From NCBI GenBank assembly GCA_021787535.1, contig JAJYLR010000002.1:24556-88555 (forward strand): DNA of 64,000 nt. Reading direction: 5' to 3'. The notes under the pieces are model-generated. The model was not told where the DNA came from, made no database searches, and worked only from the letters and a program-made list of their open reading frames with translations. Shown here one piece after another: positions 50,909 to 62,457 of this stretch. Source of the DNA: a bacterium. Lineage in GTDB: Bacteria > Patescibacteriota > CPR2 > UBA1875 > JAJYID01. A program made the translations under genes and the position numbers. How positions within the stretch are numbered: the stretch's first letter is position 1; every line of letters starts with the position of its first letter.

Positions 50909-50983
50909 TCCCGGGTAGCTCAATGGTAGAGCAGTTGACTGTTAATCAATTGGTTGCCGGTTCGAGTCCGGCCCCGGGAGCCA
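50909..50983 (+). tRNA. tRNA-Asn (anticodon GTT)
   Basis: TCCCGGG/CCCGGGA acceptor, D-loop AGCTCAATGGTAGAGC, anticodon loop CTGTTAA, T-arm GGTTCGAGTCC, encoded CCA. Confidence 0.85.
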
Positions 50984-50987
50984 AGGT

Positions 50988-51008
50988 AACAGCTAATAGC
51001 TGTTTTTG
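50988..51008 (+). terminator. terminator hairpin after tRNA-Asn
   Basis: AACAGCT-aat-AGCTGTT followed by TTTTG. A second A/T-rich stem follows and may also serve the convergent - strand gene. Confidence 0.55.
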
Positions 51009-52612
51009 ATTTTAAACAGCTTTTTTTCTGCCACGATGATCATGCTGGTTACCGGATATTCGACCGGTATAAGCCGATCGTTTGCCATTTCGTAGAGCTG
51101 GACACTTTCTTCAACTCTCTTTTTGACAATCCAGGGATTTCTATAGGTTTTTGATTCCGGACGTACACTTAAACCTGCTTTTTCTAGCGCCTCTACCCAG
51201 TCGCTATATGCCCAGAAGCAGAAAGTTTCATGGGTTTCGCTTTGCCAGTTGTCGGTATAATCTTTTTTTGTCACAAATTCGCACGTGTCCTTTAGCTTTA
51301 TTTTTATTAAATTTTTACCGGATACCTTTACGATTTGGTACTTCATTTTATACCCTTCCCTAGCTCGAAAATCTTTGGAAAACCTTAAAAATCTACCGAA
51401 TGTTGAAAGTCCGTCTAAATATTCTTTGAATTTATTTCTATCTTCAATTTTCTTATCATAATCATTATTTCTGCCATCGGTTGCATTCAAATCCAAATAG
51501 ATTTCCTTTTCTCCGTCTTCGGGCCCTATAACATCGCGATTGATCCAGCGGCCCCCTTCGCTTAGTTCAATAGACCGATTTTTTATAAATTTCAAAAGAT
51601 CTTTCCGTCCGCCGTAAGATTCTATTTCATGAGTGAGAGAGGAGGTAAGGATAGTATCCATGCTATCCGGTTCGAAAACGAGTCCGGTAATGGCATTTTT
51701 TTTCATGAAAAATACATAATCGCTTGCAAAGTCGCCATTATCTTTTCTTTGCTCGCAAATGTCGTAAAGTTTTCTGGTAACCTCTACTCCATAAAAGTCA
51801 GATTCGGAGAGTTTAGGATCCTGGCAGGCCATTTTAATCCAAGAGCCGATTGCGCAGCCGATATCTCCGATCCTTCCCGGTTTAACATATGGTGATGTTT
51901 CAGCATATTTCTGTTCGATGCTATTATCCATTGAGCGAACATAAGTGTTGTAGTCTCTGGTTTCTGTCATGTCGCCATCATCGCCGAGAGTGGTATCGCT
52001 AAAAAGCAGCTGGATCTTATCTCCTAAATTATAATCCTCAAAAATCCTCTTCGAAGAAGAATGAGTTTTATCTTGATGTATCTTATTATTTCGCCAGTTC
52101 CCTCTAGAGTTTGCTATTTCCTCTATAATTTCCCAAGGCAGCAAATCGGCATATTTTTTAAAGTCATGAGATGCGAGTTCTACCGGTAAAATCTTGAAGC
52201 CAAGTTTTTGGTACATTCTAAGCACCGGCGTTGAGCAGGCGATAATCGTATTTTTTGGTGTTAGTTTAAGTTTTCCCTCGCTTTGGTTATTAATTCTCTT
52301 TAAAGTGTACTCTCCGAACCTATCCGTGGTTCCGACGTCATTTATAGCATATACCGTGGTTTTAACTGGAAGTTCTCTGGAAAAATCTTGAATTGCCATT
52401 GCTCTCTGATACAAGGGCAAAGGATTTCTTCTGGTATTTGCATGATTCGCAGAAGTGATGGCAAAGACAATGCCGTCAATTTCCCCTTCTTTTTTAAAGG
52501 ATTTTCCATCGAAATCTTTTTTTGATCCCAGACCATTTTTTGCTAAATCATAAAGATAACCAAACTGAAAATTGGTCAGAAGATGATGCCTGCCGGGGAA
52601 TAGAATATACAT
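50993..52612 (-). CDS. two-domain protein: N-terminal nucleotidyltransferase-like region fused to class I SAM-dependent methyltransferase-like domain
   Basis: Central GRIGDIGCAIGSW (MTase motif I-like) and downstream acidic motif. N-terminal ILFPGRHH..TSANHANTRR loosely resembles HxGH/SxxxxR nucleotidyltransferases. Function unknown. Confidence 0.4.
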   Translation of the reverse strand: MYILFPGRHHLLTNFQFGYLYDLAKNGLGSKKDFDGKSFKKEGEIDGIVFAITSANHANTRRNPLPLYQRAMAIQDFSRELPVKTTVYAINDVGTTDRFGEYTLKRINNQSEGKLKLTPKNTIIACSTPVLRMYQKLGFKILPVELASHDFKKYADLLPWEIIEEIANSRGNWRNNKIHQDKTHSSSKRIFEDYNLGDKIQLLFSDTTLGDDGDMTETRDYNTYVRSMDNSIEQKYAETSPYVKPGRIGDIGCAIGSWIKMACQDPKLSESDFYGVEVTRKLYDICEQRKDNGDFASDYVFFMKKNAITGLVFEPDSMDTILTSSLTHEIESYGGRKDLLKFIKNRSIELSEGGRWINRDVIGPEDGEKEIYLDLNATDGRNNDYDKKIEDRNKFKEYLDGLSTFGRFLRFSKDFRAREGYKMKYQIVKVSGKNLIKIKLKDTCEFVTKKDYTDNWQSETHETFCFWAYSDWVEALEKAGLSVRPESKTYRNPWIVKKRVEESVQLYEMANDRLIPVEYPVTSMIIVAEKKLFKIKNSY

Positions 52613-52675
52613 GATTTCTCCTTTTGTTTAATTCAATTATACATTTGCCTCTCGTGATTAAAAAGATTAATCAAC

Positions 52676-52694
52676 TGTGTTATAATAACACTAT
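52676..52694. promoter_or_regulatory. palindrome TGTGTTATAATAACACTAT in divergent promoter region (candidate operator overlapping a TATAAT)
   Basis: GTGTTAT/ATAACAC perfect inverted arms. Near-identical to the 53900-53920 palindrome. Confidence 0.5.
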
Positions 52695-52708: not shown

Positions 52709-53101
52709 ATGGAAAGAGAAAGACCAGGAGAAGAAATAAAAGAAGGTGATCAAAAAGATAGCTTACACCAAAGGGTAGAAAAAGTTCTTAAAAAAGCCCG
52801 AGAACACGATAATTTTCAAAGAGAAAATAGAGGCGGAGAACTTCCGGAAATATTTGCAGACATTGATCGGGAAGGATTTGTTAGTTTTGGAGTGATTTCA
52901 CATGGTCTTATGAATAAACAGAGCCAATATGCGAGCAGGTATCTTAATGAAAAATTTTCTGATGAATATCCATATCTTGGAGAAGATATCAGATTGAAGG
53001 GTGATCTTGATGATTATCATGCGTTTAGAATACATAAAGATGATATCGAAGAGTTTGTAGAAAGATATGAAAAATACATGAAAAAAATTGGAGCGATGTA
53101 A
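52709..53101 (+). CDS. small acidic hypothetical protein (130 aa)
   Basis: ORF with TAATG overlap to the downstream NrtR-like gene. No recognisable motifs. Confidence 0.4.
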   Translation: MERERPGEEIKEGDQKDSLHQRVEKVLKKAREHDNFQRENRGGELPEIFADIDREGFVSFGVISHGLMNKQSQYASRYLNEKFSDEYPYLGEDIRLKGDLDDYHAFRIHKDDIEEFVERYEKYMKKIGAM

Positions 53102-53787
53102 TGAGGAGAGAAGAGGACTTTATCCCATCGCCAGTTGCCACCGATGTTGTTATTTTTACAGTCATTGGGAATGAGCTCAATGTACTTTTAGTAAAAAGAG
53201 GAAAGTTTGCGCCTCTCGGCTGGTCCTTGCCTGGCGGATTTGTTGGACAAAGGGAAGATCTGGATGAATCAGCGGTTAAGACCTTGCGGGAGAAAACCGG
53301 TGTCAGAAATGTTTACCTCGAACAGCTATATACATTCGGTGAACCCAAACGAGATCCTCGAGGCAGAGTCATATCGATAGCTTATATGGCACTAGTTGAT
53401 GCTCAAATGGTCAAGCTTGAGAAGGGCAAAGATACAGAAGGCATAAAGTGGCTACCAGTCAAGAAACTGCCTCAACTTACCTTCGACCACAGACAAATTA
53501 TTGATTATGCAAAAAAGCGGCTTATTTGGAAGATGGAATATACCAATGTTGTTTTCTCGCTTTTGCCTACTTATTTTTCACTGACAGAGCTACAGAAGGT
53601 TTATGAGGCAATTCTTGAACGGGATCTGGACAAAAGGAACTTCAGAAGAAAGTTTTTATCTACAGGGCTCATTAAGGAGACGAAGAAGAAAAGCCAAGGT
53701 GCGCATAGACCGGCGACTCTCTATAATTTTGCCGAAAAGCGGCTTGAATATATTACAAATCCTTTTGGCCAATTTCTCAAAAAATAG
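53101..53787 (+). CDS. NrtR-like Nudix-wHTH transcriptional regulator
   Basis: Nudix box GGFVGQREDLDESAVKTLREKTGV. C-terminal about 70-aa winged-helix-like region (FSLTELQKVYEAILERDLDKRNFRRKF), as in the NrtR family. Confidence 0.6.
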   Translation: MRREEDFIPSPVATDVVIFTVIGNELNVLLVKRGKFAPLGWSLPGGFVGQREDLDESAVKTLREKTGVRNVYLEQLYTFGEPKRDPRGRVISIAYMALVDAQMVKLEKGKDTEGIKWLPVKKLPQLTFDHRQIIDYAKKRLIWKMEYTNVVFSLLPTYFSLTELQKVYEAILERDLDKRNFRRKFLSTGLIKETKKKSQGAHRPATLYNFAEKRLEYITNPFGQFLKK

Positions 53788-53826
53788 CTTTCTATAAGTT
53801 AAAAATAAAATTTTTCAAAAAAGTAC

Positions 53827-53854
53827 TTGACAGTGTTTTAAAAGGGAGTATAAT
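53827..53854 (+). promoter_or_regulatory. sigma70-type promoter upstream of PP2C/kinase operon
   Basis: TTGACA, 16 nt, TATAAT. The -10 overlaps the palindrome TAGTGTCACATATACACTA. Confidence 0.6.
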
Positions 53855-53872
53855 AGTGTCACATATACACTA
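53854..53872. promoter_or_regulatory. palindrome TAGTGTCA-cat-ATACACTA (candidate operator at -10/+1)
   Basis: AGTGT/ACACT inverted arms immediately at the -10 of the promoter. Confidence 0.5.
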
Positions 53873-53899
53873 ATAACGTGTGTTTTTAAAAAATAAAAG

Positions 53900-53920
53900 A
53901 TAGTGTTATAAAAACACTAT
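53900..53920. promoter_or_regulatory. palindrome ATAGTGTTATAAAAACACTAT (candidate operator)
   Basis: 8-bp perfect inverted arms. Same half-site family. A third reversed copy ACACTTAGTGT lies at 53933-53943. Confidence 0.5.
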
Positions 53921-54030
53921 TAAATAATCAAAACACTTAGTGTATATGAAACAATTACAAAGGGGCGATCATATCAAACTGATGAGAACTTTGACAAAAG
54001 AATCGCTAAAACCTATAGAAAGGAACCGAA

Positions 54031-54762
54031 ATGGAGCTCTTACGAATAAGGGGAGGTAGAGTCATAGGAAGGCAACATTCTTTGGCAGGCAAGAACAGTC
54101 AGGATGCTTATCAAATCTATGAGCCAGAGATAATAACTTCATTATTCTCAGAGCCCAAAGTGTTTCGAGCGGGTATTCTCTCTGATGGATGCGGAAGTAC
54201 CAAGACCAGTGAGGTTGGGGCAAACCTTATCGTTCAAAAGATAGTAAGCATTCTTTGCGAAAGCAAAGTTGTGAGAATGTGCCGGAGATGGTCTCTGGAG
54301 GAGATTATTGATTACATTGAGGATTCAACATATGAGTTTCTCGATGAACTCTCAAGGGGCTGGCGGCAAATTCCATTTGTCCAAGATAATCTCTTGGCTA
54401 CTATTCTAGGGTTTGTAACTAATGGGAAAAAGCTGGTGATATTCTCAAGCGGTGACGGAACAATATTTCTTGATGATGATGTTCTTGTTATTGATGAGGA
54501 TAACACACCATCCTACTTTGCCTATCGTTTATTCGAGAAGCAAGTCAGTTTTAAGAGGATAGAGGTTGATCTGCAAAAAGTGCAGAGAGTTGCGATAGCA
54601 AGTGACGGCTTTGAACCGGAGCTTATAAATGAGTTCTGGGGCAAAGAACATCCAAATGGGGTTCAACGTCTCTTGAACGTTTATTCAAAGAAAAAGCACT
54701 TTTTGGATGATGCAACCTTAATAACTCTCGAGAAAATTCAGGGGGAAGGAGGTAGAAAATGA
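54031..54762 (+). CDS. PP2C-family Ser/Thr protein phosphatase
   Basis: PP2C motifs GRQHSLAGKNSQDAY, LSDGCGST, IASDGFEP, and a C-terminal Asp (LDDATLITLE). Confidence 0.65.
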   Translation: MELLRIRGGRVIGRQHSLAGKNSQDAYQIYEPEIITSLFSEPKVFRAGILSDGCGSTKTSEVGANLIVQKIVSILCESKVVRMCRRWSLEEIIDYIEDSTYEFLDELSRGWRQIPFVQDNLLATILGFVTNGKKLVIFSSGDGTIFLDDDVLVIDEDNTPSYFAYRLFEKQVSFKRIEVDLQKVQRVAIASDGFEPELINEFWGKEHPNGVQRLLNVYSKKKHFLDDATLITLEKIQGEGGRK

Positions 54763-56606
54763 AAGTCGTAGTCCAGGGGAAGGCGATCAATCTCAATCCG
54801 AAAGACGTACTGGGAACCGGCGGTGAGGCAGTAGTGATCAAGAAAGGCAAAGCGGCATACAAGATATTTCACCAGCCGAGTAGAGAAAAAACACAGAAAC
54901 TCCAATCCCTTCTCAAGAAAAGACTGCTCCTGCCAGATCGGGTACTTGCGCCTCTTAAACTGGTAAAAGCGGCAGGCGGCGGCGGAGTGATTGGATATAT
55001 GATGCCGCTTGCTGATCCGGGAGCAGAACCGCTGGCAAAACTGAGCAATCGGAACTTTAGAAAGACTAGCAGGATCAACATCAAAGACGTTACCGATATC
55101 TTCTTGGACACGTATAGAACAGTTGAAAAACTTCACTCGGCCGGCTTCGTGGTAGGAGACTTAAATGACTTAAATGAGATTTTTCTGGGAGATAAAGTCT
55201 ACTTTATAGATGTAGACAGCTTTCAGTTTGATCGGTTTTCCTGCCAGGTGGCAACAGAGCCATTCTTAAGTCCGACTCTCTATAATAAAGACCTGACCAA
55301 CGGTTTGGTTTTTACTCCGGAGACGGATTGGTACAGTTTCGCTGTTCTGTTATTCCGTTCACTGCTTCTGGTTCATCCTTATGGTGGTGTTCACCCCAAG
55401 ATAAATCAACTGACCGAAAGGGTAAAAAAGAGGGTAACCGCATTTGACAAAGATGTGCGTTATCCGAAATTTGCCCTAAACAGAGAAATACTTTCTGACG
55501 AGCTGCTTGACTACTTCGAGAAGACTTTCGAGAAAGGCCGTATAAGCCAATTCCCAAAGAACATTCTCGAGCAGTACGATGGCATTCTAATCAAATGCTC
55601 TAAGTGCCATGATTATTTCCCTAACAACAGGCGTCAATGTCCGGCATGCAGTACAAAGTCGGCGTTTGTAATAAACCAGAAGATAATCCTCGACTATGAG
55701 ATATCTCTGATTACTGAAACGCTCGGACAGTTTGTCTATTCCAAACTAGTTGGCAATAAGCTTTACGCTATTGCCTACGAAGATGGTATGGCAGTACTGC
55801 ATACATGGAAGAAAGGAGAGAAAACGCAAAAAACAGTCCTTTTTCCAGTAGCTCGGGATCTGGGCTTTGACATCGCCTTCGACAAGTTAATTCTGTCGAG
55901 AAAGGGCTCTAAGCAACTGATAGTTTTAGATGCAAATGATGGTTCGGTATTTACAAAAACCACGACCGATTTGTTCCAAAACTATCCGATAAAAGCCGGT
56001 ACCCATGATTCGCTGTACAGAACAGCCGGCGGTATTCTCCTAAAGTCAGAAATGATGGCAGGGAATCTCGTAAGCAGGACTGTTTCCACCATAGCCGATG
56101 AACAGACCTGGTTTCACGGAGAAACTGTTCAGGGTAAAGAAAAACTAGCAGTGGTTAGCCGGATCTTTGACAAATGGGTCTACCGGGTCTTGGTAGATGG
56201 TGCCAGCTATGAAGCTGATGTTAGGGAGCTCGAAAAAGGCGAGAAGCTAGTGTCTCTAAACGCCCGTTTCGATACAAAGGGCGCTCTTGTTATCCGTGAG
56301 ACAAAAAAGAAGGGTAAAGCATTTGTCCTGCTTGATTATATAAGTGACAATGGCGTTTCTCTCTTCTACAGTCGGGAAACATACAACGACGAAGATCATG
56401 GTAACTTACAGGGTGCAACCTTAGGAAACGGTTCGCTTCTCTTTGCCACGGCAAATGGACTCAAAGGCAAGTCTCTCACGAAGGGCAGCACTTTTGAGTT
56501 CACTGGAACTGATAAGTTCATTCAGGGAAATGAAAAAATCCACGGACTTCAAGGAGGCATTATTGTCGTAAGTGATAATAAGGCATTCCTGATAAGAAAG
56601 AGGTGA
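54759..56606 (+). CDS. Hanks-type Ser/Thr protein kinase with zinc ribbon and about 330-aa beta-rich C-terminal domain
   Basis: Gly-loop LGTGGEAVV, Lys (AYKIF), catalytic loop GFVVGDLNDLNEIF, DFG-equivalent DVDSFQF, APE-like EPFLSP, DxWS (TDWYSF). CxxC..CxxC (CSKCH..CPAC). ATGA overlap with the phosphatase. Confidence 0.7.
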   Translation: MKVVVQGKAINLNPKDVLGTGGEAVVIKKGKAAYKIFHQPSREKTQKLQSLLKKRLLLPDRVLAPLKLVKAAGGGGVIGYMMPLADPGAEPLAKLSNRNFRKTSRINIKDVTDIFLDTYRTVEKLHSAGFVVGDLNDLNEIFLGDKVYFIDVDSFQFDRFSCQVATEPFLSPTLYNKDLTNGLVFTPETDWYSFAVLLFRSLLLVHPYGGVHPKINQLTERVKKRVTAFDKDVRYPKFALNREILSDELLDYFEKTFEKGRISQFPKNILEQYDGILIKCSKCHDYFPNNRRQCPACSTKSAFVINQKIILDYEISLITETLGQFVYSKLVGNKLYAIAYEDGMAVLHTWKKGEKTQKTVLFPVARDLGFDIAFDKLILSRKGSKQLIVLDANDGSVFTKTTTDLFQNYPIKAGTHDSLYRTAGGILLKSEMMAGNLVSRTVSTIADEQTWFHGETVQGKEKLAVVSRIFDKWVYRVLVDGASYEADVRELEKGEKLVSLNARFDTKGALVIRETKKKGKAFVLLDYISDNGVSLFYSRETYNDEDHGNLQGATLGNGSLLFATANGLKGKSLTKGSTFEFTGTDKFIQGNEKIHGLQGGIIVVSDNKAFLIRKR

Positions 56607-56665
56607 GGCAAGGCAAAAAAACTGATAGTCAAGTCCAATTCCTATTTCCAAAAAGGAGGAAAAAA

Positions 56666-57589
56666 ATGAAAGCGCCAGCTTTCTATGATCCTGCTATCAT
56701 TGGATCTCTTGAATTGCCAAAGGTCCAAGAAGCAACGGAAGAAGGCCGCCGGCAGAATGTAGCTCCGGCTGCCGAAGACAAGCAGAAAGTCATCCTGGTA
56801 AATGTAGATTTCCAGGTCGACTTTGTCTTCCCAAACGGCGCCCTTCCGGTAGCAAATGCTCTCGGCGATGTAGAAAGGACAGTTGACTGGGTTTTTAGGA
56901 ACCTGGATCAAGTAACGACCATCGCCTCGAGCATCGACTCGCATATCCCCGTTCAGATCTTCTATTCCACTTGGTGGGTAGATGAGAACGGGAACCCGCC
57001 TGCTCCATATACGATGATCACGCTGAAAGACGTGGAGGACGGCAAGTGGAGGCCTGTCGTTGATCCGGTGTGGACGCGGAAATATCTGACAGAGCTGGAT
57101 AAGGGCGGCAAGAAAACTCTGATGATCTGGCCTTTCCACTGCATGATCGGCACTCCCGGTCAGGCACTGGTGCCGAATCTGATGGAGGCAATTGCCTTCC
57201 ACTCCGCTGCCAGGCGTTCGCAACCGGTATACCTCGTCAAGGGCTCCATCCCTCAGACGGAAAACTACTCCATCGTTGAGCCCGAAGTAAAGTATCCCAA
57301 GCATCCGGCCGGTGACTTAAATACTCCGTTTCTGGACCTTGTGGCCAGACACGACCTGGTTTATGTAGCCGGCGAGGCGAAGAGCCACTGCGTGTTGGAT
57401 ACGATGCATTCCATCGTGAAACACTTTGCCGGTCAGGATGAAATCCTCGGCAAGATCCGTTTTCTGATGGACTGCACATCTTCGGTGGAGCATCCCGATG
57501 TTCCGTTCAATGAAATCGCCAATGCCGAACTCGCCGAAATGGAAAAGCTCGGCGTCCGTTTGGTCAAATCCACCGATCCGATCGGCTAA
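56666..57589 (+). CDS. nicotinamidase-like isochorismatase-family hydrolase (PncA-like, long form)
   Basis: D-x-Q-x-DF (VNVDFQVDF), conserved Lys, Cys nucleophile in AGEAKSHCVLDT. Strong RBS AAAAAGGAGG. Start at Met 56666. Confidence 0.55.
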   Translation: MKAPAFYDPAIIGSLELPKVQEATEEGRRQNVAPAAEDKQKVILVNVDFQVDFVFPNGALPVANALGDVERTVDWVFRNLDQVTTIASSIDSHIPVQIFYSTWWVDENGNPPAPYTMITLKDVEDGKWRPVVDPVWTRKYLTELDKGGKKTLMIWPFHCMIGTPGQALVPNLMEAIAFHSAARRSQPVYLVKGSIPQTENYSIVEPEVKYPKHPAGDLNTPFLDLVARHDLVYVAGEAKSHCVLDTMHSIVKHFAGQDEILGKIRFLMDCTSSVEHPDVPFNEIANAELAEMEKLGVRLVKSTDPIG

Positions 57590-57611
57590 TTTAAAAGGAG
57601 GAGGTGACAAA

Positions 57612-58388
57612 ATGTCTAATATGAACGATGTCAACGATCTCTTCGAAGAGGCGGTTGAGGACGGTCTGGATGAACAAGCGAGCCAGATCATGGTAGCAAA
57701 CCTCGACGCAGTGGCGCTCGCCGGCTGTCAAGGTACAGAGATCGACCTTATCCCTGAGGATGAGGTTACACTAGTCTCTGTCATTCACGATGGCAGCGGT
57801 TCTATGAGCGGCGCGCGCGACGTGGTAGTCCAGAGCTATGAAGGCTTGCTCGACGCCTTAAGAAATTCAAAAAAGGCAGAGAGCATCTTCATTTCTGACT
57901 GGATCTTCAACACTCAGTCGGACTTAGTCCACGACTACTTGCCGGTTGAGCAAGCACCTGATCTCGGTAACAGCTACTTTCCAGGCGGCGGAACAGCTCT
58001 TTATGACACTGTTATGAAGGGCTTAAGCGGTATCGTCGCTTATGGCCAGCAGCTGAGATCAAACGGTGTTCGTACCAAGAACGTAGTTGTTGTCTTTTCT
58101 GATGGTGAAGATAACAGCTCAGGGGTTACGAACACAGAAGTCAAAAAAGTCACGAAGGCCCTTCTCGCTCAAGAGACATTCATCCTTGCCTATGTTGGTT
58201 TCACCACATACGGCATGATGAATGAAGCTGAAGTACAGCGTCTTGCTGGCGAGATCGGTTTCAATGACGTTATCGCGGTTGGCACGAGCCCTTCCGAAAT
58301 CCGGAAGATCTTCCAACAGGTAAGCGATTCTATTATACAAGTTAGCCAGTCGGCTGTTTCGTCCGGCGGATTCTTCGCCGCACCTTAA
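57612..58388 (+). CDS. von Willebrand factor A (vWA) domain protein (TerY-like)
   Basis: MIDAS DGSGSM (DxSxS), later Thr and VVFSDGEDN. Strong RBS AAAAGGAGGAGG. Confidence 0.65.
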   Translation: MSNMNDVNDLFEEAVEDGLDEQASQIMVANLDAVALAGCQGTEIDLIPEDEVTLVSVIHDGSGSMSGARDVVVQSYEGLLDALRNSKKAESIFISDWIFNTQSDLVHDYLPVEQAPDLGNSYFPGGGTALYDTVMKGLSGIVAYGQQLRSNGVRTKNVVVVFSDGEDNSSGVTNTEVKKVTKALLAQETFILAYVGFTTYGMMNEAEVQRLAGEIGFNDVIAVGTSPSEIRKIFQQVSDSIIQVSQSAVSSGGFFAAP

Positions 58389-58452
58389 GCAGCCGGTAAC
58401 TAACCTGTAGCTGTTTCTTTAAAAGAAACAAGGGGAATAATGCTTTAGCAAA

Positions 58453-58521
58453 GCGCCCCGGGCAAACGCCCGGGGTTCCCCTCCCAACATGGTCCGAAAA
58501 GGATCACCAATATGTACCTTG
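58453..58521 (+). promoter_or_regulatory. conserved leader element copy A (hairpin 1 - GGGGTTCCC - hairpin 2 - CCAATATGTACCTTG box)
   Basis: CCCCGGGC-aaac-GCCCGGGG hairpin. GGTCC-gaaaa-GGATC hairpin. Conserved box directly 5' of the RBS of ORF 58561. Confidence 0.45.
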
Positions 58522-58560
58522 GAAACCAACTATAAACTTTCTTGATTAGGAGAGATGAAA

Positions 58561-58698
58561 ATGTCCGGTTCAGATACAAGTATGATAAGGCCTATGACCA
58601 TCCAAGAACGGCTCGCCAGACTGGAAGAAGAAATGGCAAATGTCAGATTGCAAATGGAAAGAGAGAGGAGTGAAGATGATCCGCGCAGAAACACTTAG
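58561..58698 (+). CDS. small protein (45 aa), unknown
   Basis: RBS AGGAGAG 6 nt upstream. Helical RLARLEEEMANVRLQMERER. Not in the ORF track (below the length cut-off). Confidence 0.35.
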   Translation: MSGSDTSMIRPMTIQERLARLEEEMANVRLQMERERSEDDPRRNT

Positions 58699-58960
58699 GA
58701 GAATCATCGAAGATGCCGAGAGAGATATCGCTTCTACCCGTAAGTTTCTCGCCAGACAGAAAGCAGAGCTCAAGATGATCGAAGGCACCTGTCTCCACTC
58801 CTTCACGAAGTTTGTCTACGATCCAATCGTGACAATACCGGAAGCCAAGTGGCAAGGCAAGGGCCTGGTCGCGCCGGATGACATAACCGTTCGTTTCGTC
58901 AAACAGTGTGTTATCTGCGGCATGACCCGGATGGTCGAGACAGAATCGGCTCTCAACTGA
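58676..58960 (+). CDS. small Cys-containing protein (94 aa), unknown
   Basis: RBS GGAG within the upstream ORF end. CLHSF..CVICGM possible zinc-binding pairs. Start taken at Met 58676 (the track ORF 58640 has no RBS). Confidence 0.4.
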   Translation: MIRAETLRRIIEDAERDIASTRKFLARQKAELKMIEGTCLHSFTKFVYDPIVTIPEAKWQGKGLVAPDDITVRFVKQCVICGMTRMVETESALN

Positions 58961-59013
58961 CAGTTGGTCAAAGCTATTCTTTTTAAAAAAGAATGGGATT
59001 AAAGCAATGGCAT

Positions 59014-59082
59014 GCGCCCCGATGGATATCGGGGTTCCCTTCACATTATGGCGCTAAAAAGCGCCGCCAAATATGTACCTTG
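59014..59082 (+). promoter_or_regulatory. conserved leader element copy B
   Basis: CCCCGAT-ggat-ATCGGGG hairpin. GGCGC-taaaaa-GCGCC hairpin. CCAAATATGTACCTTG box. 5' of the RBS of the Nudix gene. Confidence 0.45.
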
Positions 59083-59121
59083 ACAACAGAATAAGCTAAA
59101 ATAAGAACAAAGGAGAGGATT

Positions 59122-59682
59122 GTGAAGATAATTAATGAAGAAACCTTGGCCGAAACGCCGTTTCTAAAGCTTGTCAGACTGGATTGCATAAGTCCTTTAG
59201 GAAGACGCTTGAAGTGGGATGGTACAAGGAGAGAAAACCGAAGAGCAGTCAGTGTAGTTGCCGTTACAAAAGACGAAAAGATAATTCTAGTGCGGCAGCC
59301 TCGTTACTTAATTGGCAGTGAAGTGATCGAATTTCCTGCCGGTCTCCTGGATATTAAGGGAGAAAATATGATCAAGACAGCAAAAAGAGAACTTCTCGAA
59401 GAAACCGGCTATGAGGCGACAGATTTTACCATTCTCCTGGGAGGAGAGGAAGGACTTGTCAATTCTCCCGGTATGACAGACGAAAGATCGTCTCTTGTCG
59501 TATGTAAAAATGCCGTCAAAGCCGCTGAACCGCTGGAAAATGAAGAAACCAAACCCTTCCTGCTTGATTTAAAAGGGGCTTACCAAGAATTGAAAGAGTT
59601 AGCTCAAAGGGAAGAAGTGGCCTTTAAGGTTTTCGGTAACCTGGCCCTAGCGAAAGATTGGTATGAAGGGAGGAGAAAGTGA
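59122..59682 (+). CDS. Nudix hydrolase (ADP-ribose pyrophosphatase-like)
   Basis: Nudix box GLLDIKGENMIKTAKRELLEETGYE. GTG start with RBS AAAGGAGAGG. Confidence 0.7.
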   Translation: MKIINEETLAETPFLKLVRLDCISPLGRRLKWDGTRRENRRAVSVVAVTKDEKIILVRQPRYLIGSEVIEFPAGLLDIKGENMIKTAKRELLEETGYEATDFTILLGGEEGLVNSPGMTDERSSLVVCKNAVKAAEPLENEETKPFLLDLKGAYQELKELAQREEVAFKVFGNLALAKDWYEGRRK

Positions 59683-60479
59683 AGGTATATCTGGCTATCA
59701 AACACGGGGATAAAGCTCAGTATATGGTAAAGAAACTGAGGGCGATATTTCCAAATCTGGGTATAGAAGAAATAAGTACACCCGAAGAAGCTGATAAGAT
59801 ATTCTCTGTCGGCGGAGACGGAACTCTTCTATATAACATTCAGAAATATCTCCACCTTGAGAAACCGCTTATCGGCATTAACGCCGGATCTGTCGGATAC
59901 CTCTGCCGAGCGCATGAAGACAACATGGAAGAAGACTTAAAGGAAGCATTAAACGAAGAGCCGCTAACTTTTTATGCCTTCGATGTAACATCAGAAAAAC
60001 TAGAGGAGGTGGCGATAGCGGAAGTAAGAGTAGAACGGCCCACACTTGATTGTGTCAGGATGAAAATAGTGAATAATGGTGCAACCTTAGCTCATAAACA
60101 TATCGGCGATGGCATCATTATTACAAACTCTCTGGGTTCTACTGGCTATAACGACTCGGCCGGCGGACCAATTCTCGCACTAGATGATAAGCGTGCGGTC
60201 TTAACCCCCATCTGCCCCTACAAAAGAGGAGGGGAAATATACGACTCAATCATAACCTCACAGATCTATGATGATATTGATATAGAAATCATCACAGATC
60301 ATGATGCGCGGCTGGTTCTGGAAAATCGGGGGTTTGTATTGACTGCCGGAGAGCCCGTACACATTACCTATGGCAAGAAAAAGTTCTTTCTTCACACGAA
60401 GAGAAAGGATGAAAGGAGAGAGGAAAATGAAAAAAAATCAGATACAAGCAAAACGCTTAAAACCAAAGCTCGGCTTTGA
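59679..60479 (+). CDS. nadK: NAD+ kinase
   Basis: GGDGTLL and NDSAGGPI motifs. GTG start with RBS GGGAGGAG. Confidence 0.8.
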   Translation: MKVYLAIKHGDKAQYMVKKLRAIFPNLGIEEISTPEEADKIFSVGGDGTLLYNIQKYLHLEKPLIGINAGSVGYLCRAHEDNMEEDLKEALNEEPLTFYAFDVTSEKLEEVAIAEVRVERPTLDCVRMKIVNNGATLAHKHIGDGIIITNSLGSTGYNDSAGGPILALDDKRAVLTPICPYKRGGEIYDSIITSQIYDDIDIEIITDHDARLVLENRGFVLTAGEPVHITYGKKKFFLHTKRKDERREENEKKSDTSKTLKTKARL

Positions 60480-61632
60480 TGATGTGGATGTCTATCTTCC
60501 AAGGGGCATCAAAGCTCTTGAAGCCGAGGGCCAAAACCCGATAGGTTTCTGGCGGCTCTTCCAGAGGCATGAAGGGGCTAGATTTTTTGGCATTCATGAG
60601 TTTATGAGTGCTCTCGCATCTCTGGTTCACAAGGATGATCTGGAAGACATCGTGATTTATGCAGTCCCTGAGGGCTATCAGCTGAAACGCCATGAAACGG
60701 CGGTTACGATGGAAGGTCCTGCCAGAAGTCTTCTGGCAAACGAGACGCTTCTGCATTACCTCTCGACCGGAACGCGTTTCCGCACTCTTGCCGGCGATTT
60801 CCCCTTTGATACCATAGCATCTCCCTGGGTTTTCATGGGTGCAAGGTATCTTTCTCTGGAGGATCTGACAATAGCGACCAGGGCGTTGAGCGAGGAAGGC
60901 ATTGTCTCAACCGTTCCCAGTCTGGCTGACAAAGTGATTGGCACAGAAAGCCATTCTCAGATTGCCATGTGGGGAGCGCTTAGACTGGATAGCGTGGCTG
61001 AAGAAGCCATTCAAAGCATTACGCGTGATCCGGGGACGCAGGCTACGATTCGGGCAACGGTAGCTTTTAACAAAGCAAATCCTGAGGTGCCGCTCTTTGT
61101 TCTGGGTGACTTTGCAGCCAGAAGCATTGGCTGCTTTGAAACATTCAAGGCAACCAAAAAAGCATGTGACCTTCTTGGCATCAAACTGGTTGGCGGCCGG
61201 ATGGATATCTCGAAAGCCGACTTAAACGATGAACCGATTGTGGATGCGGCCTTTGGCGGAAACTCGAAAGAAGATGCCGGCATGAAACTGCATGTAGTCA
61301 AAAAGATCCGTCAAATGTTAGACAAAGACGGCATGAGCGGTTTCAAGCTTGTTGTTTCAAGCGGGATCAAGCTTGAGGATATAGGCAAATACAGAGAAGT
61401 CGGAGCCGATATCATCGGTATCGGCGAACAAGCGGCTTACTACTTAAACCAAGGCCAATGCAACTTCACTTCAGACGCTTCCGGTTTCTTTGAAGGTGAA
61501 CGGCTGGTTCCTTTTGCCAAAGAAGGCCGGGAACTTCGGCGGGTGATGGCATCCGAAGATCTTGTAAATGCAGCCAGAGGCATCAAGATCTCCGATTCAC
61601 TAGTTCGCCATAATCTACGAAATTACGTCTAA
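60427..61632 (+). CDS. pncB: nicotinate phosphoribosyltransferase, archaeal-type (type II PRTase)
   Basis: Segments IVIYAVPEGYQL, TMEGPARSLLANETLLHYLS..RFRTLAG and FKLVVSSGIKLEDIGKYREVGADIIGIGEQ match the short NAPRTase family. Start at Met 60427 with RBS AGGAGAGAGG. Confidence 0.65.
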   Translation: MKKNQIQAKRLKPKLGFDDVDVYLPRGIKALEAEGQNPIGFWRLFQRHEGARFFGIHEFMSALASLVHKDDLEDIVIYAVPEGYQLKRHETAVTMEGPARSLLANETLLHYLSTGTRFRTLAGDFPFDTIASPWVFMGARYLSLEDLTIATRALSEEGIVSTVPSLADKVIGTESHSQIAMWGALRLDSVAEEAIQSITRDPGTQATIRATVAFNKANPEVPLFVLGDFAARSIGCFETFKATKKACDLLGIKLVGGRMDISKADLNDEPIVDAAFGGNSKEDAGMKLHVVKKIRQMLDKDGMSGFKLVVSSGIKLEDIGKYREVGADIIGIGEQAAYYLNQGQCNFTSDASGFFEGERLVPFAKEGRELRRVMASEDLVNAARGIKISDSLVRHNLRNYV

Positions 61633-61692
61633 TTAAAACGGCGGGCGCTTCACATCAAGAAGCGCCCGCTCCAAAACCAAAGGGAGAAGAAA

Positions 61693-62457
61693 ATGAAATT
61701 CGATGTACAAAAGTTCACCGACAAGGCTTGTAATTTCCTACAAAATTACATGCGAGACAATAATCTGAACAAAGTCGTCATCGGCTTGTCCGGCGGCGTT
61801 GATTCGGCCACAGCTCTTGCCCTCGCGGTAAGGGCGCTTGATCCGGACCGGGTAATCGCAGTCACTATGCCAAACGGCGTGCTCGGTTTTAAAGACCGGG
61901 ATGATGCGCGTCTTGCGGCGGAGACCTTCGGCGTAAAGGATTTGAGAGATGTCGATATCTCTCCCGCAGTAGAGACTTTCTGCGAAATGCTATCCTCGGA
62001 TCAACCGAAGTGCGTCGGTAATATTTCGGCCAGATGCCGGATGATCACTCTCTATGACATAGCCCGGCGGGAAGGTGCGATCGTACTTGGTACCGAAAAC
62101 AAGACGGAGCACTTCCTGGGCTACTTCACAAAGGCCGGCGATGAAGTGTCTGATATTGAGCTTATTCGAGACCTTTGGAAGACGCAGGTTCGCGAGCTGG
62201 CTCGTTCTTTGGGTGTTCCCAGGGAGATTATCGAGAAAGCTCCGAGCGCCCGTCTCTGGGAGGGTCAGACCGACGAAGATGAACTCGGCGTCATCTACGA
62301 ACTGGCCGACCAAATCCTGAAGGCATTGGTCGTGGACCAAAAGCAGGATGAAGACCTCGTTCGGGAAGGTTTTCAAACTCAAGATGTCGCCAAAGTCAGG
62401 GAGCTGATGGCGGGTATTGCTTTCAAGCTCCAGGATGTACCTTTCCCGAAAGTGTAA
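61693..62457 (+). CDS. nadE: NH3-dependent NAD+ synthetase
   Basis: PP-loop VIGLSGGVDSA, 254 aa. Confidence 0.85.
   Translation: MKFDVQKFTDKACNFLQNYMRDNNLNKVVIGLSGGVDSATALALAVRALDPDRVIAVTMPNGVLGFKDRDDARLAAETFGVKDLRDVDISPAVETFCEMLSSDQPKCVGNISARCRMITLYDIARREGAIVLGTENKTEHFLGYFTKAGDEVSDIELIRDLWKTQVRELARSLGVPREIIEKAPSARLWEGQTDEDELGVIYELADQILKALVVDQKQDEDLVREGFQTQDVAKVRELMAGIAFKLQDVPFPKV

What the first reader, a model, noticed from the sequence alone, without database searches (positions are those of the whole stretch)
54031..58388. PP2C phosphatase - Ser/Thr kinase - vWA triad (TerY-P type) embedded in an NAD-salvage neighbourhood
Three genes carry clear signatures. 54031 is a PP2C (DGCGST, SDG). 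54759 is a Hanks kinase with zinc ribbon and a large beta-rich C-terminal domain. 57612 is a vWA protein with intact MIDAS DGSGSM. Phosphatase and kinase are translationally coupled (ATGA). This matches the vWA/PP2C/STK 'TerY-P' triad predicted by comparative genomics as a phosphorylation switch. Here it sits among NAD-metabolism genes (PncA-like between kinase and vWA; Nudix, NadK, NAPRTase, NadE downstream) and behind a Nudix-wHTH (NrtR-like) regulator with palindromic sites at the promoter. The combination suggests a signalling or defence module wired to NAD/ADP-ribose status. That wiring is inference and has not been characterised.
Basis: partly seen in the sequence, partly recalled or inferred. 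Interest (0 to 1): 0.75.

Follow-up and report, generated by a model that had tools for sequence, protein, structure and literature searches.

The report
Kinase-switch nicotinamidase cassette under NrtR
The three signalling genes are real, but they belong to a conserved four-gene unit whose fourth and best-conserved member is a nicotinamide-degrading enzyme; the unit is switched on by an NAD-breakdown sensor in several bacterial phyla and is also carried by many phages, so it most likely controls NAD recycling.

Summary
54031-58388 encodes a PP2C phosphatase, a Ser/Thr kinase with a zinc ribbon and a predicted beta-propeller, a nicotinamidase-like hydrolase, and a vWA protein with an intact MIDAS. 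The phosphatase, kinase and vWA proteins are homologous to E. coli PphC, YegI and YegL, the TerY-P archetype.

Three points are new:
- **Four genes, not three.** The conserved unit includes the nicotinamidase-like gene, which is the best-conserved member. Two gene pairs are invariant: PP2C then kinase, and nicotinamidase then vWA.
- **NrtR control.** An NrtR-type palindrome (TAGTGT-N7-ACACTA) sits at a perfect sigma-70 promoter here. It also lies upstream of the cassette in 44 of 72 related loci from several phyla, about 100-fold denser than elsewhere. NAPRTase and nrtR are the only recurrent neighbours across phyla.
- **Phage carriage.** The cassette occurs in 32 of 37 viral-contig groups, including huge phages, often next to NAPRTase and NadE.

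Best reading: an ADP-ribose-induced nicotinamide-salvage module controlled by phosphorylation, which phages use to rebuild NAD. A defence role is less likely. How the proteins act on each other is inferred. I found no description of this cassette in the searchable literature.

The parts
52658..52693 (+). Promoter-like site (TTAAAA-17-TATAAT with TG extension) overlapped by an NrtR-type palindrome (CTGTGTTATAATAACACTA, 52675-52693), upstream of orf130-nrtR; likely autoregulation
52709..53101 (+). 130-aa ORF of unknown function immediately upstream of nrtR; found only in the closest relatives
   Evidence: no Pfam family; present in L001-L003 only
53101..53787 (+). NrtR: Nudix-like effector domain plus winged-helix DNA-binding domain (the family is described as an ADP-ribose-responsive repressor)
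   Evidence: NrtR_WHD 8.8e-26, NUDIX 5e-16; NF050029, 9e-53, below the equivalog cutoff
53827..53854 (+). Consensus sigma-70 promoter TTGACA-16-TATAAT (12/12) for the cassette
53854..53872 (+). NrtR-type operator 1, TAGTGTCACATATACACTA (GT-N7-AC core), abutting the -10 box
   Evidence: conserved in L003; motif definition in PMC2330246
53901..53919 (+). NrtR-type operator 2, TAGTGTTATAAAAACACTA, downstream of the promoter
54031..54762 (+). PP2C-family Ser/Thr phosphatase, homologous to PphC/YegK
   Evidence: PF13672, 1.6e-12; invariant metal-binding Asp residues; hhalign against PphC: probability 97.7, E 1.4e-12
54759..56606 (+). YegI-type Ser/Thr kinase (about residues 1-275), four-Cys zinc ribbon (277-300) and a predicted beta-propeller of about 29 strands (305-615); start overlaps the PP2C stop (ATGA)
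56666..57589 (+). Long-form nicotinamidase (PncA-like isochorismatase-fold hydrolase): catalytic D48/K192/C242 and metal ligands D91/H93/H158
57612..58388 (+). TerY/YegL-like vWA protein with an intact MIDAS (D60xS62xS64, T128, D164), an N-terminal extension of about 50 aa and a conserved C-terminal GFF
59122..62457 (+). Lineage-specific NAD-metabolism block: NudE-like Nudix (59122-59682), NAD kinase-like (59679-60479), divergent type II phosphoribosyltransferase (60427-61632), NadE (61693-62457). Context only, not part of the conserved cassette

Best explanation
**What it is.** A four-gene operon: PP2C phosphatase, YegI-type Ser/Thr kinase (zinc ribbon plus beta-propeller), long-form nicotinamidase, and TerY/YegL-like vWA protein. 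It is a nicotinamide-salvage module under two layers of control.

**Layer 1, transcription (partly shown).** NrtR binds palindromes that flank the promoter and represses the operon. By the established behaviour of the NrtR family, ADP-ribose, the co-product of NAD cleavage, relieves repression. The cassette is therefore made when NAD is being broken down.

**Layer 2, protein level (inferred).** The kinase/phosphatase pair sets a phosphorylation state. The propeller is a candidate sensor or docking domain. This state governs the vWA protein. The vWA gene always directly follows the nicotinamidase gene, so the vWA protein probably binds the enzyme, or its partner, through its metal-dependent MIDAS site and gates activity or localisation.

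**Output (inferred from sequence and fold).** Nicotinamide is hydrolysed to nicotinate. Nicotinate feeds NAPRTase and NadE, the Preiss-Handler route, to rebuild NAD.

**In phages.** The same cassette, often with NAPRTase and NadE, would rebuild NAD from the nicotinamide released by host NAD-depleting defences.

**Status of the steps.**
- Shown: gene identities, homology to the YegI/PphC/YegL triad, the conserved four-gene architecture, conserved operators, NAD-salvage neighbours, and carriage on phages.
- Inferred: enzyme substrate, who phosphorylates whom, the vWA-nicotinamidase interaction, and ADP-ribose induction.
For: **Architecture.**
- Of 80 genome loci found through the kinase, 70 have the PP2C, 65 the nicotinamidase and 63 the vWA.
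- The vWA gene lies downstream of the nicotinamidase gene in 113 of 114 loci. The kinase gene lies downstream of PP2C in 115 of 115.
- Only two gene orders occur, and both keep the two pairs.

**Nicotinamidase identity.**
- The only PDB sequence hits are nicotinamidases.
- The catalytic and metal residues are at least 97% conserved in 161 dereplicated sequences, phage copies included.
- The AlphaFold model has pLDDT 86. Its top 10 Foldseek hits are all nicotinamidases, with target-normalised TM 0.71-0.78 except the longer Drosophila enzyme (0.47).

**Triad identity.** hhalign against YegI, PphC and YegL. YegI is a proven Ser/Thr kinase (bioRxiv 10.1101/819920).

**NrtR control.**
- Operators sit at a 12/12 promoter in the window.
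- The same palindrome lies upstream of the first cassette gene in 44 of 72 loci, at 2.59 per kb against 0.026 per kb elsewhere. This includes loci with no nrtR within 10 kb.
- Both halves of split operons carry sites.
- The motif fits the published GT-N7-AC core (PMC2330246).

**NAD context.**
- A bona fide NAPRTase (Pfam 2e-53) is adjacent in 24 genome loci, and nrtR in 15.
- In viral loci, NadE recurs in 13 groups, NAPRTase in 10, and also NrtR, Macro and NAD-dependent ligase.

**Phage carriage.**
- 32 of 37 viral groups carry the full cassette.
- Huge-phage GenBank records carry cassette genes.
- In one phage group, terminase and portal genes flank the cassette.
Against: - Nothing here shows a physical or regulatory link between the triad and the nicotinamidase.
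- The same nicotinamidase family often occurs alone. Only 20 of the 80 best metagenome loci have the vWA. No residues distinguish cassette-linked copies from solitary ones. The enzyme therefore does not need the triad.
- Anaerolineae-type and viral cassettes lack the NrtR-type operator.
- Some loci have only the PP2C-kinase pair, or the kinase alone, behind an operator. The kinase may have other targets.
- Relatives of the triad (TerY-P) are reported as stand-alone anti-phage systems (PMC11090510, citing Gao 2020).
- The nicotinamidase has about 100 extra residues compared with characterised PncA enzymes and no Pfam hit. Its substrate could differ.
Confidence: 0.5

Rival explanations
1. Anti-phage defence or superinfection-exclusion system of the TerY-P kind. 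The kinase/phosphatase/vWA switch senses infection. The nicotinamidase is the effector: it destroys nicotinamide so that invading phages cannot rebuild NAD through nicotinamide-dependent pathways (NARP1, NARP2). ADP-ribose induction through NrtR couples it to NAD-depleting immunity. Prophage copies would exclude competing phages.
For: - The triad is homologous to YegI/PphC/YegL.
- TerY-P-like modules are reported as stand-alone defence systems (PMC11090510).
- Nudix-wHTH regulators have been proposed to control conflict operons (PMC9503650).
- In one tailed-phage group the cassette sits in a moron-like position between terminase and portal.
Against: - No PADLOC model hits any of the four proteins, even at E up to 10.
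- The nicotinamidase is 50-67% identical across phyla, which is slow evolution for a defence gene.
- No defence genes recur in the neighbourhood; only NAPRTase and nrtR do.
- Lytic-type huge phages carry the cassette together with NAD-building enzymes.
- Solitary copies of the same enzyme are common.
Confidence: 0.2
2. Co-regulated but functionally separate units. The nicotinamidase is simply the pncA of the NrtR regulon. The PP2C/kinase/vWA triad is a general Ser/Thr signalling unit, with other targets, that is also induced by NAD breakdown. The adjacency reflects shared regulation and joint horizontal transfer, not a direct interaction.
For: - Loci with only PP2C-kinase, or only the kinase, still carry NrtR-type operators, and unrelated housekeeping genes lie downstream.
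- Solitary nicotinamidase genes are common.
- There are no cassette-specific residues in the enzyme.
Against: - The nicotinamidase-then-vWA adjacency holds in 113 of 114 loci, through both gene orders, across at least four phyla and in phages that lack NrtR operators.
- The median gap is 47-76 bp.
- The vWA gene travels with the enzyme, not with the kinase pair, in the permuted order.
Confidence: 0.15
3. The isochorismatase-fold enzyme does not act on free nicotinamide. It acts on another amide, such as NMN, nicotinamide riboside, NAD itself or a protein side chain. The vWA protein presents the substrate and the kinase switch licenses the reaction.
For: - The protein is about 100 residues longer than characterised PncA enzymes: an N-terminal extension, a roughly 60-residue insert between the metal ligands, and a C-terminal extension.
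- There is no Pfam or NCBIfam match.
- vWA domains are peptide-binding modules (PMC9503650).
Against: - All nicotinamidase-specific residues, including the WPxH metal ligand, are invariant.
- Nicotinamidases are the best matches by both structure and sequence, ahead of other isochorismatase-fold amidases.
- NAPRTase, which uses the product nicotinate, is the most frequent neighbour.
Confidence: 0.1

Closest known systems
TerY-P triad (Anantharaman, Iyer, Aravind 2012), with E. coli YegI-PphC-YegL as its archetype
   Same: - A TerY/YegL-like vWA protein, a PP2C phosphatase and a Ser/Thr kinase with a C-terminal zinc ribbon, encoded together.
- All three are detectably homologous to the E. coli proteins.
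   Different: - A nicotinamidase gene is built into the operon and paired with the vWA gene.
[quoted passage not shown]
- The unit is under NrtR operators and linked to NAPRTase and NadE.
- It is frequent on phage genomes.
- I could not read the 2012 paper, so I cannot exclude that it lists this association.
TerY-P anti-phage defence system (Gao et al. 2020, as summarised in PMC11090510)
   Same: A three-gene vWA/PP2C/kinase module that can act as a self-contained cassette.
   Different: - In that system the kinase is fused to an OB fold. Here it is a zinc ribbon plus propeller.
- No PADLOC model matches.
- This cassette has an added enzyme with a metabolic signature.
- A defence activity has not been tested.
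NrtR regulon for salvage pathway I (nrtR-pncA, pncB, nadE; Rodionov et al. 2008, PMC2330246)
   Same: - A Nudix-wHTH repressor.
- Palindromic operators with a GT-N7-AC core.
- Targets include pncA-type and pncB genes. Chloroflexi are listed with '#nrtR-pncA; #pncB'.
   Different: - The regulated unit here includes a kinase, a phosphatase and a vWA protein, none of which that paper mentions.
- The PncA is a divergent long form that Pfam does not recognise.
Phage NAD reconstitution pathways NARP1, NARP2 and NARP3
   Same: Phage-borne genes that would restore NAD after host NADase attack. The neighbours here include NAD-building enzymes.
   Different: - The enzymes differ: NARP1 is Adps+Namat, NARP2 is Nampt+Nmnat, NARP3 is PnuC+NadR.
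- Here the route would be nicotinamidase, then NAPRTase, then NadE.
- None of the NARPs includes a kinase/phosphatase/vWA switch.
- Function is untested here.
ARG-centred systems regulated by Nudix or WYL transcription factors (Iyer et al. 2022, PMC9503650)
   Same: Operons under an NrtR-like ADP-ribose-sensing repressor that sometimes include a vWA 'chaperone'.
   Different: - The core enzyme there is an ADP-ribosylglycohydrolase with rhodanese-type phosphatases.
- Those systems have no nicotinamidase, no PP2C and no Ser/Thr kinase.

Membership tests
TerY-P triad | TerY/YegL-like vWA protein with a MIDAS | tested here: met
   - MIDAS residues D60, S62, S64, T128 and D164 are invariant or nearly so.
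- hhalign against E. coli YegL: probability 82, E 1e-5, over 174 columns.
- A profile search hits vWA domains in the PDB.
- Several homologues carry PF00092 or the JGI name 'YegL'.
- The window protein itself is below the Pfam gathering score.
TerY-P triad | PP2C-type phosphatase encoded alongside | tested here: met
   PF13672, E 1.6e-12, above the cutoff. hhalign against PphC: probability 97.7, E 1.4e-12.
TerY-P triad | Ser/Thr kinase fused at its C-terminus to a zinc ribbon | tested here: met
   - hhalign against YegI: probability 99.5, E 3e-22, covering the kinase domain and the CxxC...CPxC region.
- Four Cys and the catalytic K, D, N and DxD residues are invariant.
- AlphaFold model.
- An extra propeller follows the zinc ribbon.
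TerY-P triad | The three genes are conserved as neighbours | tested here: met
   co-localised in 61 of 80 genome loci and 32 of 37 viral groups, always together with the nicotinamidase gene.
TerY-P defence system (Gao 2020 / PADLOC) | Match to the curated defence-system protein models | tested here: not met
   No PADLOC-DB v2 model hits the PP2C, vWA or nicotinamidase at E up to 10. The kinase gives only a spurious MkoA fragment. I did not verify which TerY-P models the library contains.
TerY-P defence system (Gao 2020 / PADLOC) | Kinase fused to an OB fold | tested here: not met
   The C-terminal domain is an all-beta propeller of about 29 strands. The OB-fold feature is taken from PMC11090510.
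TerY-P defence system (Gao 2020 / PADLOC) | Protects against phage | not testable with these tools
   Requires a phage challenge of a host carrying 53788-58388.
Nicotinamidase (PncA/Pnc1) | Asp-Lys-Cys catalytic triad | tested here: met
   D48, K192 and C242 are invariant in 25 sequences and at least 97% conserved in 161. They align with Pnc1 and PncA motifs.
Nicotinamidase (PncA/Pnc1) | Metal-binding Asp-x-His and the WPxH histidine | tested here: met
   D91, H93 and H158 are invariant. The WPxHC motif aligns with Pnc1 and with P. horikoshii PncA.
Nicotinamidase (PncA/Pnc1) | Isochorismatase-like fold closest to nicotinamidases | tested here: met
   Model pLDDT 86. The top 10 Foldseek PDB hits are all nicotinamidases; best E 3.4e-10, target-normalised TM 0.76.
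Nicotinamidase (PncA/Pnc1) | Match to the curated family model (Pfam Isochorismatase, NCBIfam) | tested here: not met
   No Pfam family at E up to 1 and no NCBIfam hit. This is a divergent long form of about 305 aa.
Nicotinamidase (PncA/Pnc1) | Hydrolyses nicotinamide to nicotinate | not testable with these tools
   Requires an enzyme assay.
NrtR regulon | Regulator with a Nudix domain plus the NrtR winged helix | tested here: met
   (PF21906, 8.8e-26; PF00293, 5e-16).
NrtR regulon | Palindromic operators with a GT-N7-AC core at target promoters, conserved across genomes | tested here: met
   - Window sites.
- 44 of 72 related loci, with about 100-fold enrichment.
- Motif definition from PMC2330246.
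- Not met in Anaerolineae-type loci or in viral loci.
NrtR regulon | DNA binding relieved by ADP-ribose | not testable with these tools
   Requires a gel-shift assay with and without ADP-ribose.
Phage NAD reconstitution pathways (NARP1-3) | Presence of the defining enzyme pairs (Adps+Namat, Nampt+Nmnat, PnuC+NadR) | tested here: not met
   None of these families appears among the cassette genes or among the recurrent viral neighbours tested against Pfam. The resemblance is functional only.

The most novel reading that the evidence does not exclude
The cassette is a previously unrecognised way to rebuild NAD through the Preiss-Handler route (nicotinamidase, then NAPRTase, then NadE), with a built-in Ser/Thr phosphorylation switch. 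Bacteria induce it through ADP-ribose and NrtR when NAD is being cleaved. Phages, including huge phages, carry it to defeat NAD-depleting immunity. It would also give the TerY-P/YegI-PphC-YegL type of triad its first defined physiological output: control of a nicotinamidase through the vWA protein.
Probability: 0.3. Interest if true: 0.8.

Novelty: new variant of a known kind. Interest (0 to 1): 0.68.

Why it matters
- **A concrete lead on an old puzzle.** TerY-P-type triads, including E. coli yegI-pphC-yegL, have been known for over a decade with no identified target or signal. Here the triad is locked to one enzyme of known chemistry and one known metabolite-sensing repressor. That gives a testable hypothesis: ADP-ribose as input, nicotinamide turnover as output.
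- **A possible new kind of NAD control.** I know of no bacterial NAD-salvage enzyme controlled by Ser/Thr phosphorylation or by a vWA partner, and the papers I could search describe none.
- **The phage-host NAD arms race.** The cassette's abundance in phage genomes, next to NAPRTase and NadE, suggests another route in that conflict, distinct from NARP1-3.
- **Annotation.** The long-form PncA family is invisible to Pfam and NCBIfam. NAD-salvage capacity is therefore probably under-annotated in Chloroflexota, Patescibacteria, Myxococcota and Elusimicrobiota.

Tried and rejected
- **PADLOC.** Scans at E 0.01 and E 10 gave no TerY-P or other defence match.
- **Rfam.** The whole window at gathering score, and 58380-59130 at E up to 1, gave only tRNAs and noise.
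- **Literature.** Searches for nicotinamidase+vWA+PP2C+kinase, PncA+TerY, and nicotinamidase/von Willebrand/NrtR found no description. The NARP papers do not mention PncA or kinases. The jumbo-phage and NAD-ADPr surveys from the Aravind group do not describe the cassette. The original TerY-P paper (PMC4104200) is not held.
- **Cassette-specific residues.** I looked for residues that separate cassette-linked from solitary nicotinamidases, as candidate phosphosites or MIDAS ligands. There are none.
- **Operators elsewhere.** I looked for NrtR-type operators in Anaerolineae-type loci and viral loci. They are absent, so NrtR control is not universal.
- **Alternative effectors.** I checked whether loci with only the PP2C-kinase pair, or only the kinase, carry another effector downstream. 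Only unrelated housekeeping genes are there.
- **539-aa neighbour.** Its N-terminal half gave nothing against the PDB.
- **AlphaFold database.** The afdb50 fold library was unavailable.
- **Rejected idea.** The downstream Nudix-NadK-PRT-NadE block is not part of the conserved system. It is present only in L001-L003.

Full report
**Observation**

The region 54031-58388 holds four tightly packed plus-strand genes, each with its own Shine-Dalgarno sequence.

- **PP2C, 54031-54762.** It matches Pfam PP2C_2 above the gathering score (E 1.6e-12). Its metal-binding aspartates are invariant in orthologues.
- **Kinase, 54759-56606.** Its start overlaps the PP2C stop (ATGA). The Pfam Pkinase hit is only sub-threshold. 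But 35 full-length homologues keep the glycine loop, K35, D134, N139, the D151/D153 pair and four cysteines.
- **Kinase structure.** An AlphaFold model built on that alignment has mean pLDDT 91 and pTM 0.86. It shows a kinase domain, a zinc ribbon and an all-beta domain of about 29 strands. Foldseek matches kinases and WD40 or clathrin-type propellers, and LRRK2 as a kinase-plus-propeller.
- **Nicotinamidase-like gene, 56666-57589.** No Pfam or NCBIfam hit.
- **vWA, 57612-58388.** Its MIDAS is invariant across the family.

Upstream, NrtR (53101-53787) is clear. Three TAGTGT-N7-ACACTA palindromes lie at the two promoters. One abuts the -10 box of a perfect TTGACA-16-TATAAT promoter.

**Source**

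The window is a chromosomal stretch of an uncultured bacterium. Identical genes lie on ENA and Logan contigs of up to 122 kb, flanked by H+-PPase, VanW, SOD, LepA and similar genes.

**What the triad is**

Profile-profile comparison with E. coli K-12 genes fetched from NC_000913.3 gave:

| Family here | E. coli protein | Probability | E-value |
|---|---|---|---|
| Kinase | YegI (kinase domain plus zinc ribbon) | 99.5% | 3e-22 |
| PP2C | PphC | 97.7% | 1e-12 |
| vWA | YegL | 82% | 1e-5 |

- This is the architecture described as the TerY-P triad: a TerY-like vWA protein, a PP2C, and a kinase fused to a zinc ribbon (PMC11090510).
- YegI is an experimentally shown Ser/Thr kinase (10.1101/819920).
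- No PADLOC model matches. The domain after the zinc ribbon is a propeller, not the OB fold of the tested defence variant.
- I therefore file it as a TerY-P-type triad, not as the Gao-type defence system.
- The kinase family is large: 1,618 cluster representatives at E up to 1e-30. Most of the best 150 are full length.

**What the fourth gene is**

- The 307-aa protein hits only nicotinamidases in the PDB by sequence.
- The PncA catalytic triad (D48, K192, C242) and metal ligands (D91, H93, H158 within WPxH) are at least 97% conserved in 161 dereplicated family members.
- Its model has pLDDT 86. The ten best PDB matches are all nicotinamidases.
- It is a long form with about 100 extra residues, 50-67% identical across phyla.

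**Neighbourhood conservation**

- A scan of one genome per species with the kinase profile returned 80 loci. They come from Chloroflexota, Patescibacteria (WWE3, Woesebacteria, Collierbacteria, Kuenenbacteria, Falkowbacteria), Myxococcota, Elusimicrobiota, Spirochaetales and others.
- Of these, 70 encode the PP2C, 65 the nicotinamidase and 63 the vWA protein. The Nudix, NadK, PRT and NadE genes of the window recur only in its closest relative.
- Over all collections, the vWA gene follows the nicotinamidase gene in 113 of 114 loci. The kinase gene follows the PP2C gene in 115 of 115.
- Only two orders occur: PP2C-kinase-nicotinamidase-vWA and nicotinamidase-vWA-PP2C-kinase. One viral locus is the exception.
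- The only neighbours that recur across phyla are a NAPRTase (24 loci; Pfam 2e-53 for a WWE3 example) and nrtR (15 loci).

**Regulation**

- The window's palindrome fits the published NrtR operator core, GT-N7-AC (PMC2330246).
- The same palindrome lies within 350 bp upstream of the first cassette gene in 44 of 72 evaluable loci. Its density there is 2.59 per kb, against 0.026 per kb elsewhere.
- It is present where no nrtR lies within 10 kb, before both halves of split operons, and before kinase genes that stand alone.
- Myxococcota carry a variant at the NAPRTase gene that heads their operon.
- Anaerolineae-type loci and viral loci lack it.
- The 2008 NrtR paper lists nrtR-pncA and pncB for Chloroflexi but mentions no kinase, phosphatase or vWA protein.

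**Reverse test and phages**

- Starting from the nicotinamidase profile, only 20 of the 80 best metagenome loci carry the vWA gene. Many solitary copies have 6 kb of flank on both sides. The enzyme family therefore also serves alone. Solitary copies cluster with Anaerolineae-type cassette copies.
- In IMG/VR the same profile found 103 loci. The best 80 form 37 dereplicated groups, and 32 of them carry all four genes.
- Ten of those contigs exceed 200 kb.
- Three GenBank huge-phage records (462-595 kb) carry cassette genes. LR745208 and LR756500 have all four. In LR756511 no kinase was found within 10 kb.
- In one group of 42 near-identical loci, a terminase large subunit and a portal gene flank the cassette.
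- The best BFVD match of the kinase model is a Myoviridae kinase.
- Recurrent viral neighbours are NadE (13 groups), NAPRTase (10), NrtR, Macro, a calcineurin-like phosphoesterase and NAD-dependent DNA ligase.

**Interpretation**

The data fit a nicotinamide-salvage module with transcriptional control by NrtR and ADP-ribose, and protein-level control by the triad.

- The invariant pairing of the vWA gene with the enzyme gene suggests that the vWA protein is the link between the switch and the enzyme. This step is inferred.
- Phage carriage next to NAD-building enzymes suggests use against NAD-depleting defences. The enzymes differ from those of NARP1-3.
- Rival readings are:
  - a defence system with a nicotinamidase effector;
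  - mere co-regulation of separate units;
  - a substrate other than nicotinamide.

Each remains open and has a stated refuting test.

**Novelty**

I found no paper describing this four-gene cassette, its NrtR control or its presence in phages. The original TerY-P paper could not be read.

I rate it a new variant of a known kind, with interest 0.68. The components are familiar. But the link gives an orphan signalling triad a candidate input and output, and it points to a further front in the phage-host NAD conflict.

Noticed in passing
window 58432-58530 and 58993-59091 (+ strand): Two copies of a structured element of about 95 nt: an outer GGGGA/UCCCC stem enclosing two hairpins, then a further hairpin with compensatory changes between copies, then a conserved CCAAnAUGUACCUUG. 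One copy follows the vWA gene. The other immediately precedes the Nudix-NadK-PRT-NadE operon. Both are conserved, with the same fold, in the 88% relative L003. There is no Rfam match, and the element is absent from the other 244 loci. It could be a cis-regulatory RNA of NAD genes or a terminator-promoter repeat.
   Followed up: partly
window 50993-52612 (- strand); L024:13771, L054:14556, L157:7938-8831: A 539-aa protein with only a weak SAM-methyltransferase signal (residues 221-474) lies next to the cassette in the window. Homologues lie next to it in a Woesebacteria locus, a Myxococcales locus (just after nrtR) and a metagenome locus. It is a recurrent neighbour of unknown function. Its N-terminal half has no PDB relative.
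   Followed up: partly
L045, L048, L050, L053 (PP2C-kinase only); L057, L060, L062-L064, L073 (kinase only): More distant kinase paralogues in Chloroflexota lack an adjacent nicotinamidase-vWA pair. They still carry tandem NrtR-type palindromes directly upstream. The downstream genes are unrelated housekeeping genes. The kinase thus seems to be an NrtR-regulon member in its own right.
   Followed up: partly
window 58562-58699 and 58676-58960 (+ strand): Two small overlapping ORFs (45 aa and 94 aa; the latter has Cys pairs) lie between the vWA gene and the Nudix operon. They are called as genes on the source contig and conserved in L003. No family match.
   Followed up: no
L168:6487-7938 (and the 42-member viral group): In the tailed-phage group, a 483-aa DUF2828/DUF7788/VWA_2 protein (PHROG 850, 'RNA-binding protein') sits directly upstream of the cassette, between terminase and portal. 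This is a second, unrelated vWA protein at the same locus.
   Followed up: no
L040:10001-11880 (Ktedonospora formicarum SOSP1-1): The only cultured carrier seen has its kinase split into two overlapping ORFs (524 aa and 156 aa). This suggests a frameshift in the propeller or a sequencing error.
   Followed up: no
window 60427-61632 (+ strand): The 'NAPRTase' of the window is very divergent: QRPTase_N E 5e-4, NCBIfam PRK07188 E 1e-21, far below the cutoffs. It is unrelated at the phmmer level to the bona fide NAPRTases that accompany the cassette elsewhere, so its substrate is uncertain.
   Followed up: partly
window 50909-50980: A tRNA gene lies immediately next to the 539-aa gene at the left edge of the NAD-related block. 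No integrase was seen, and I did not examine whether the block is a mobile insertion.
   Followed up: no
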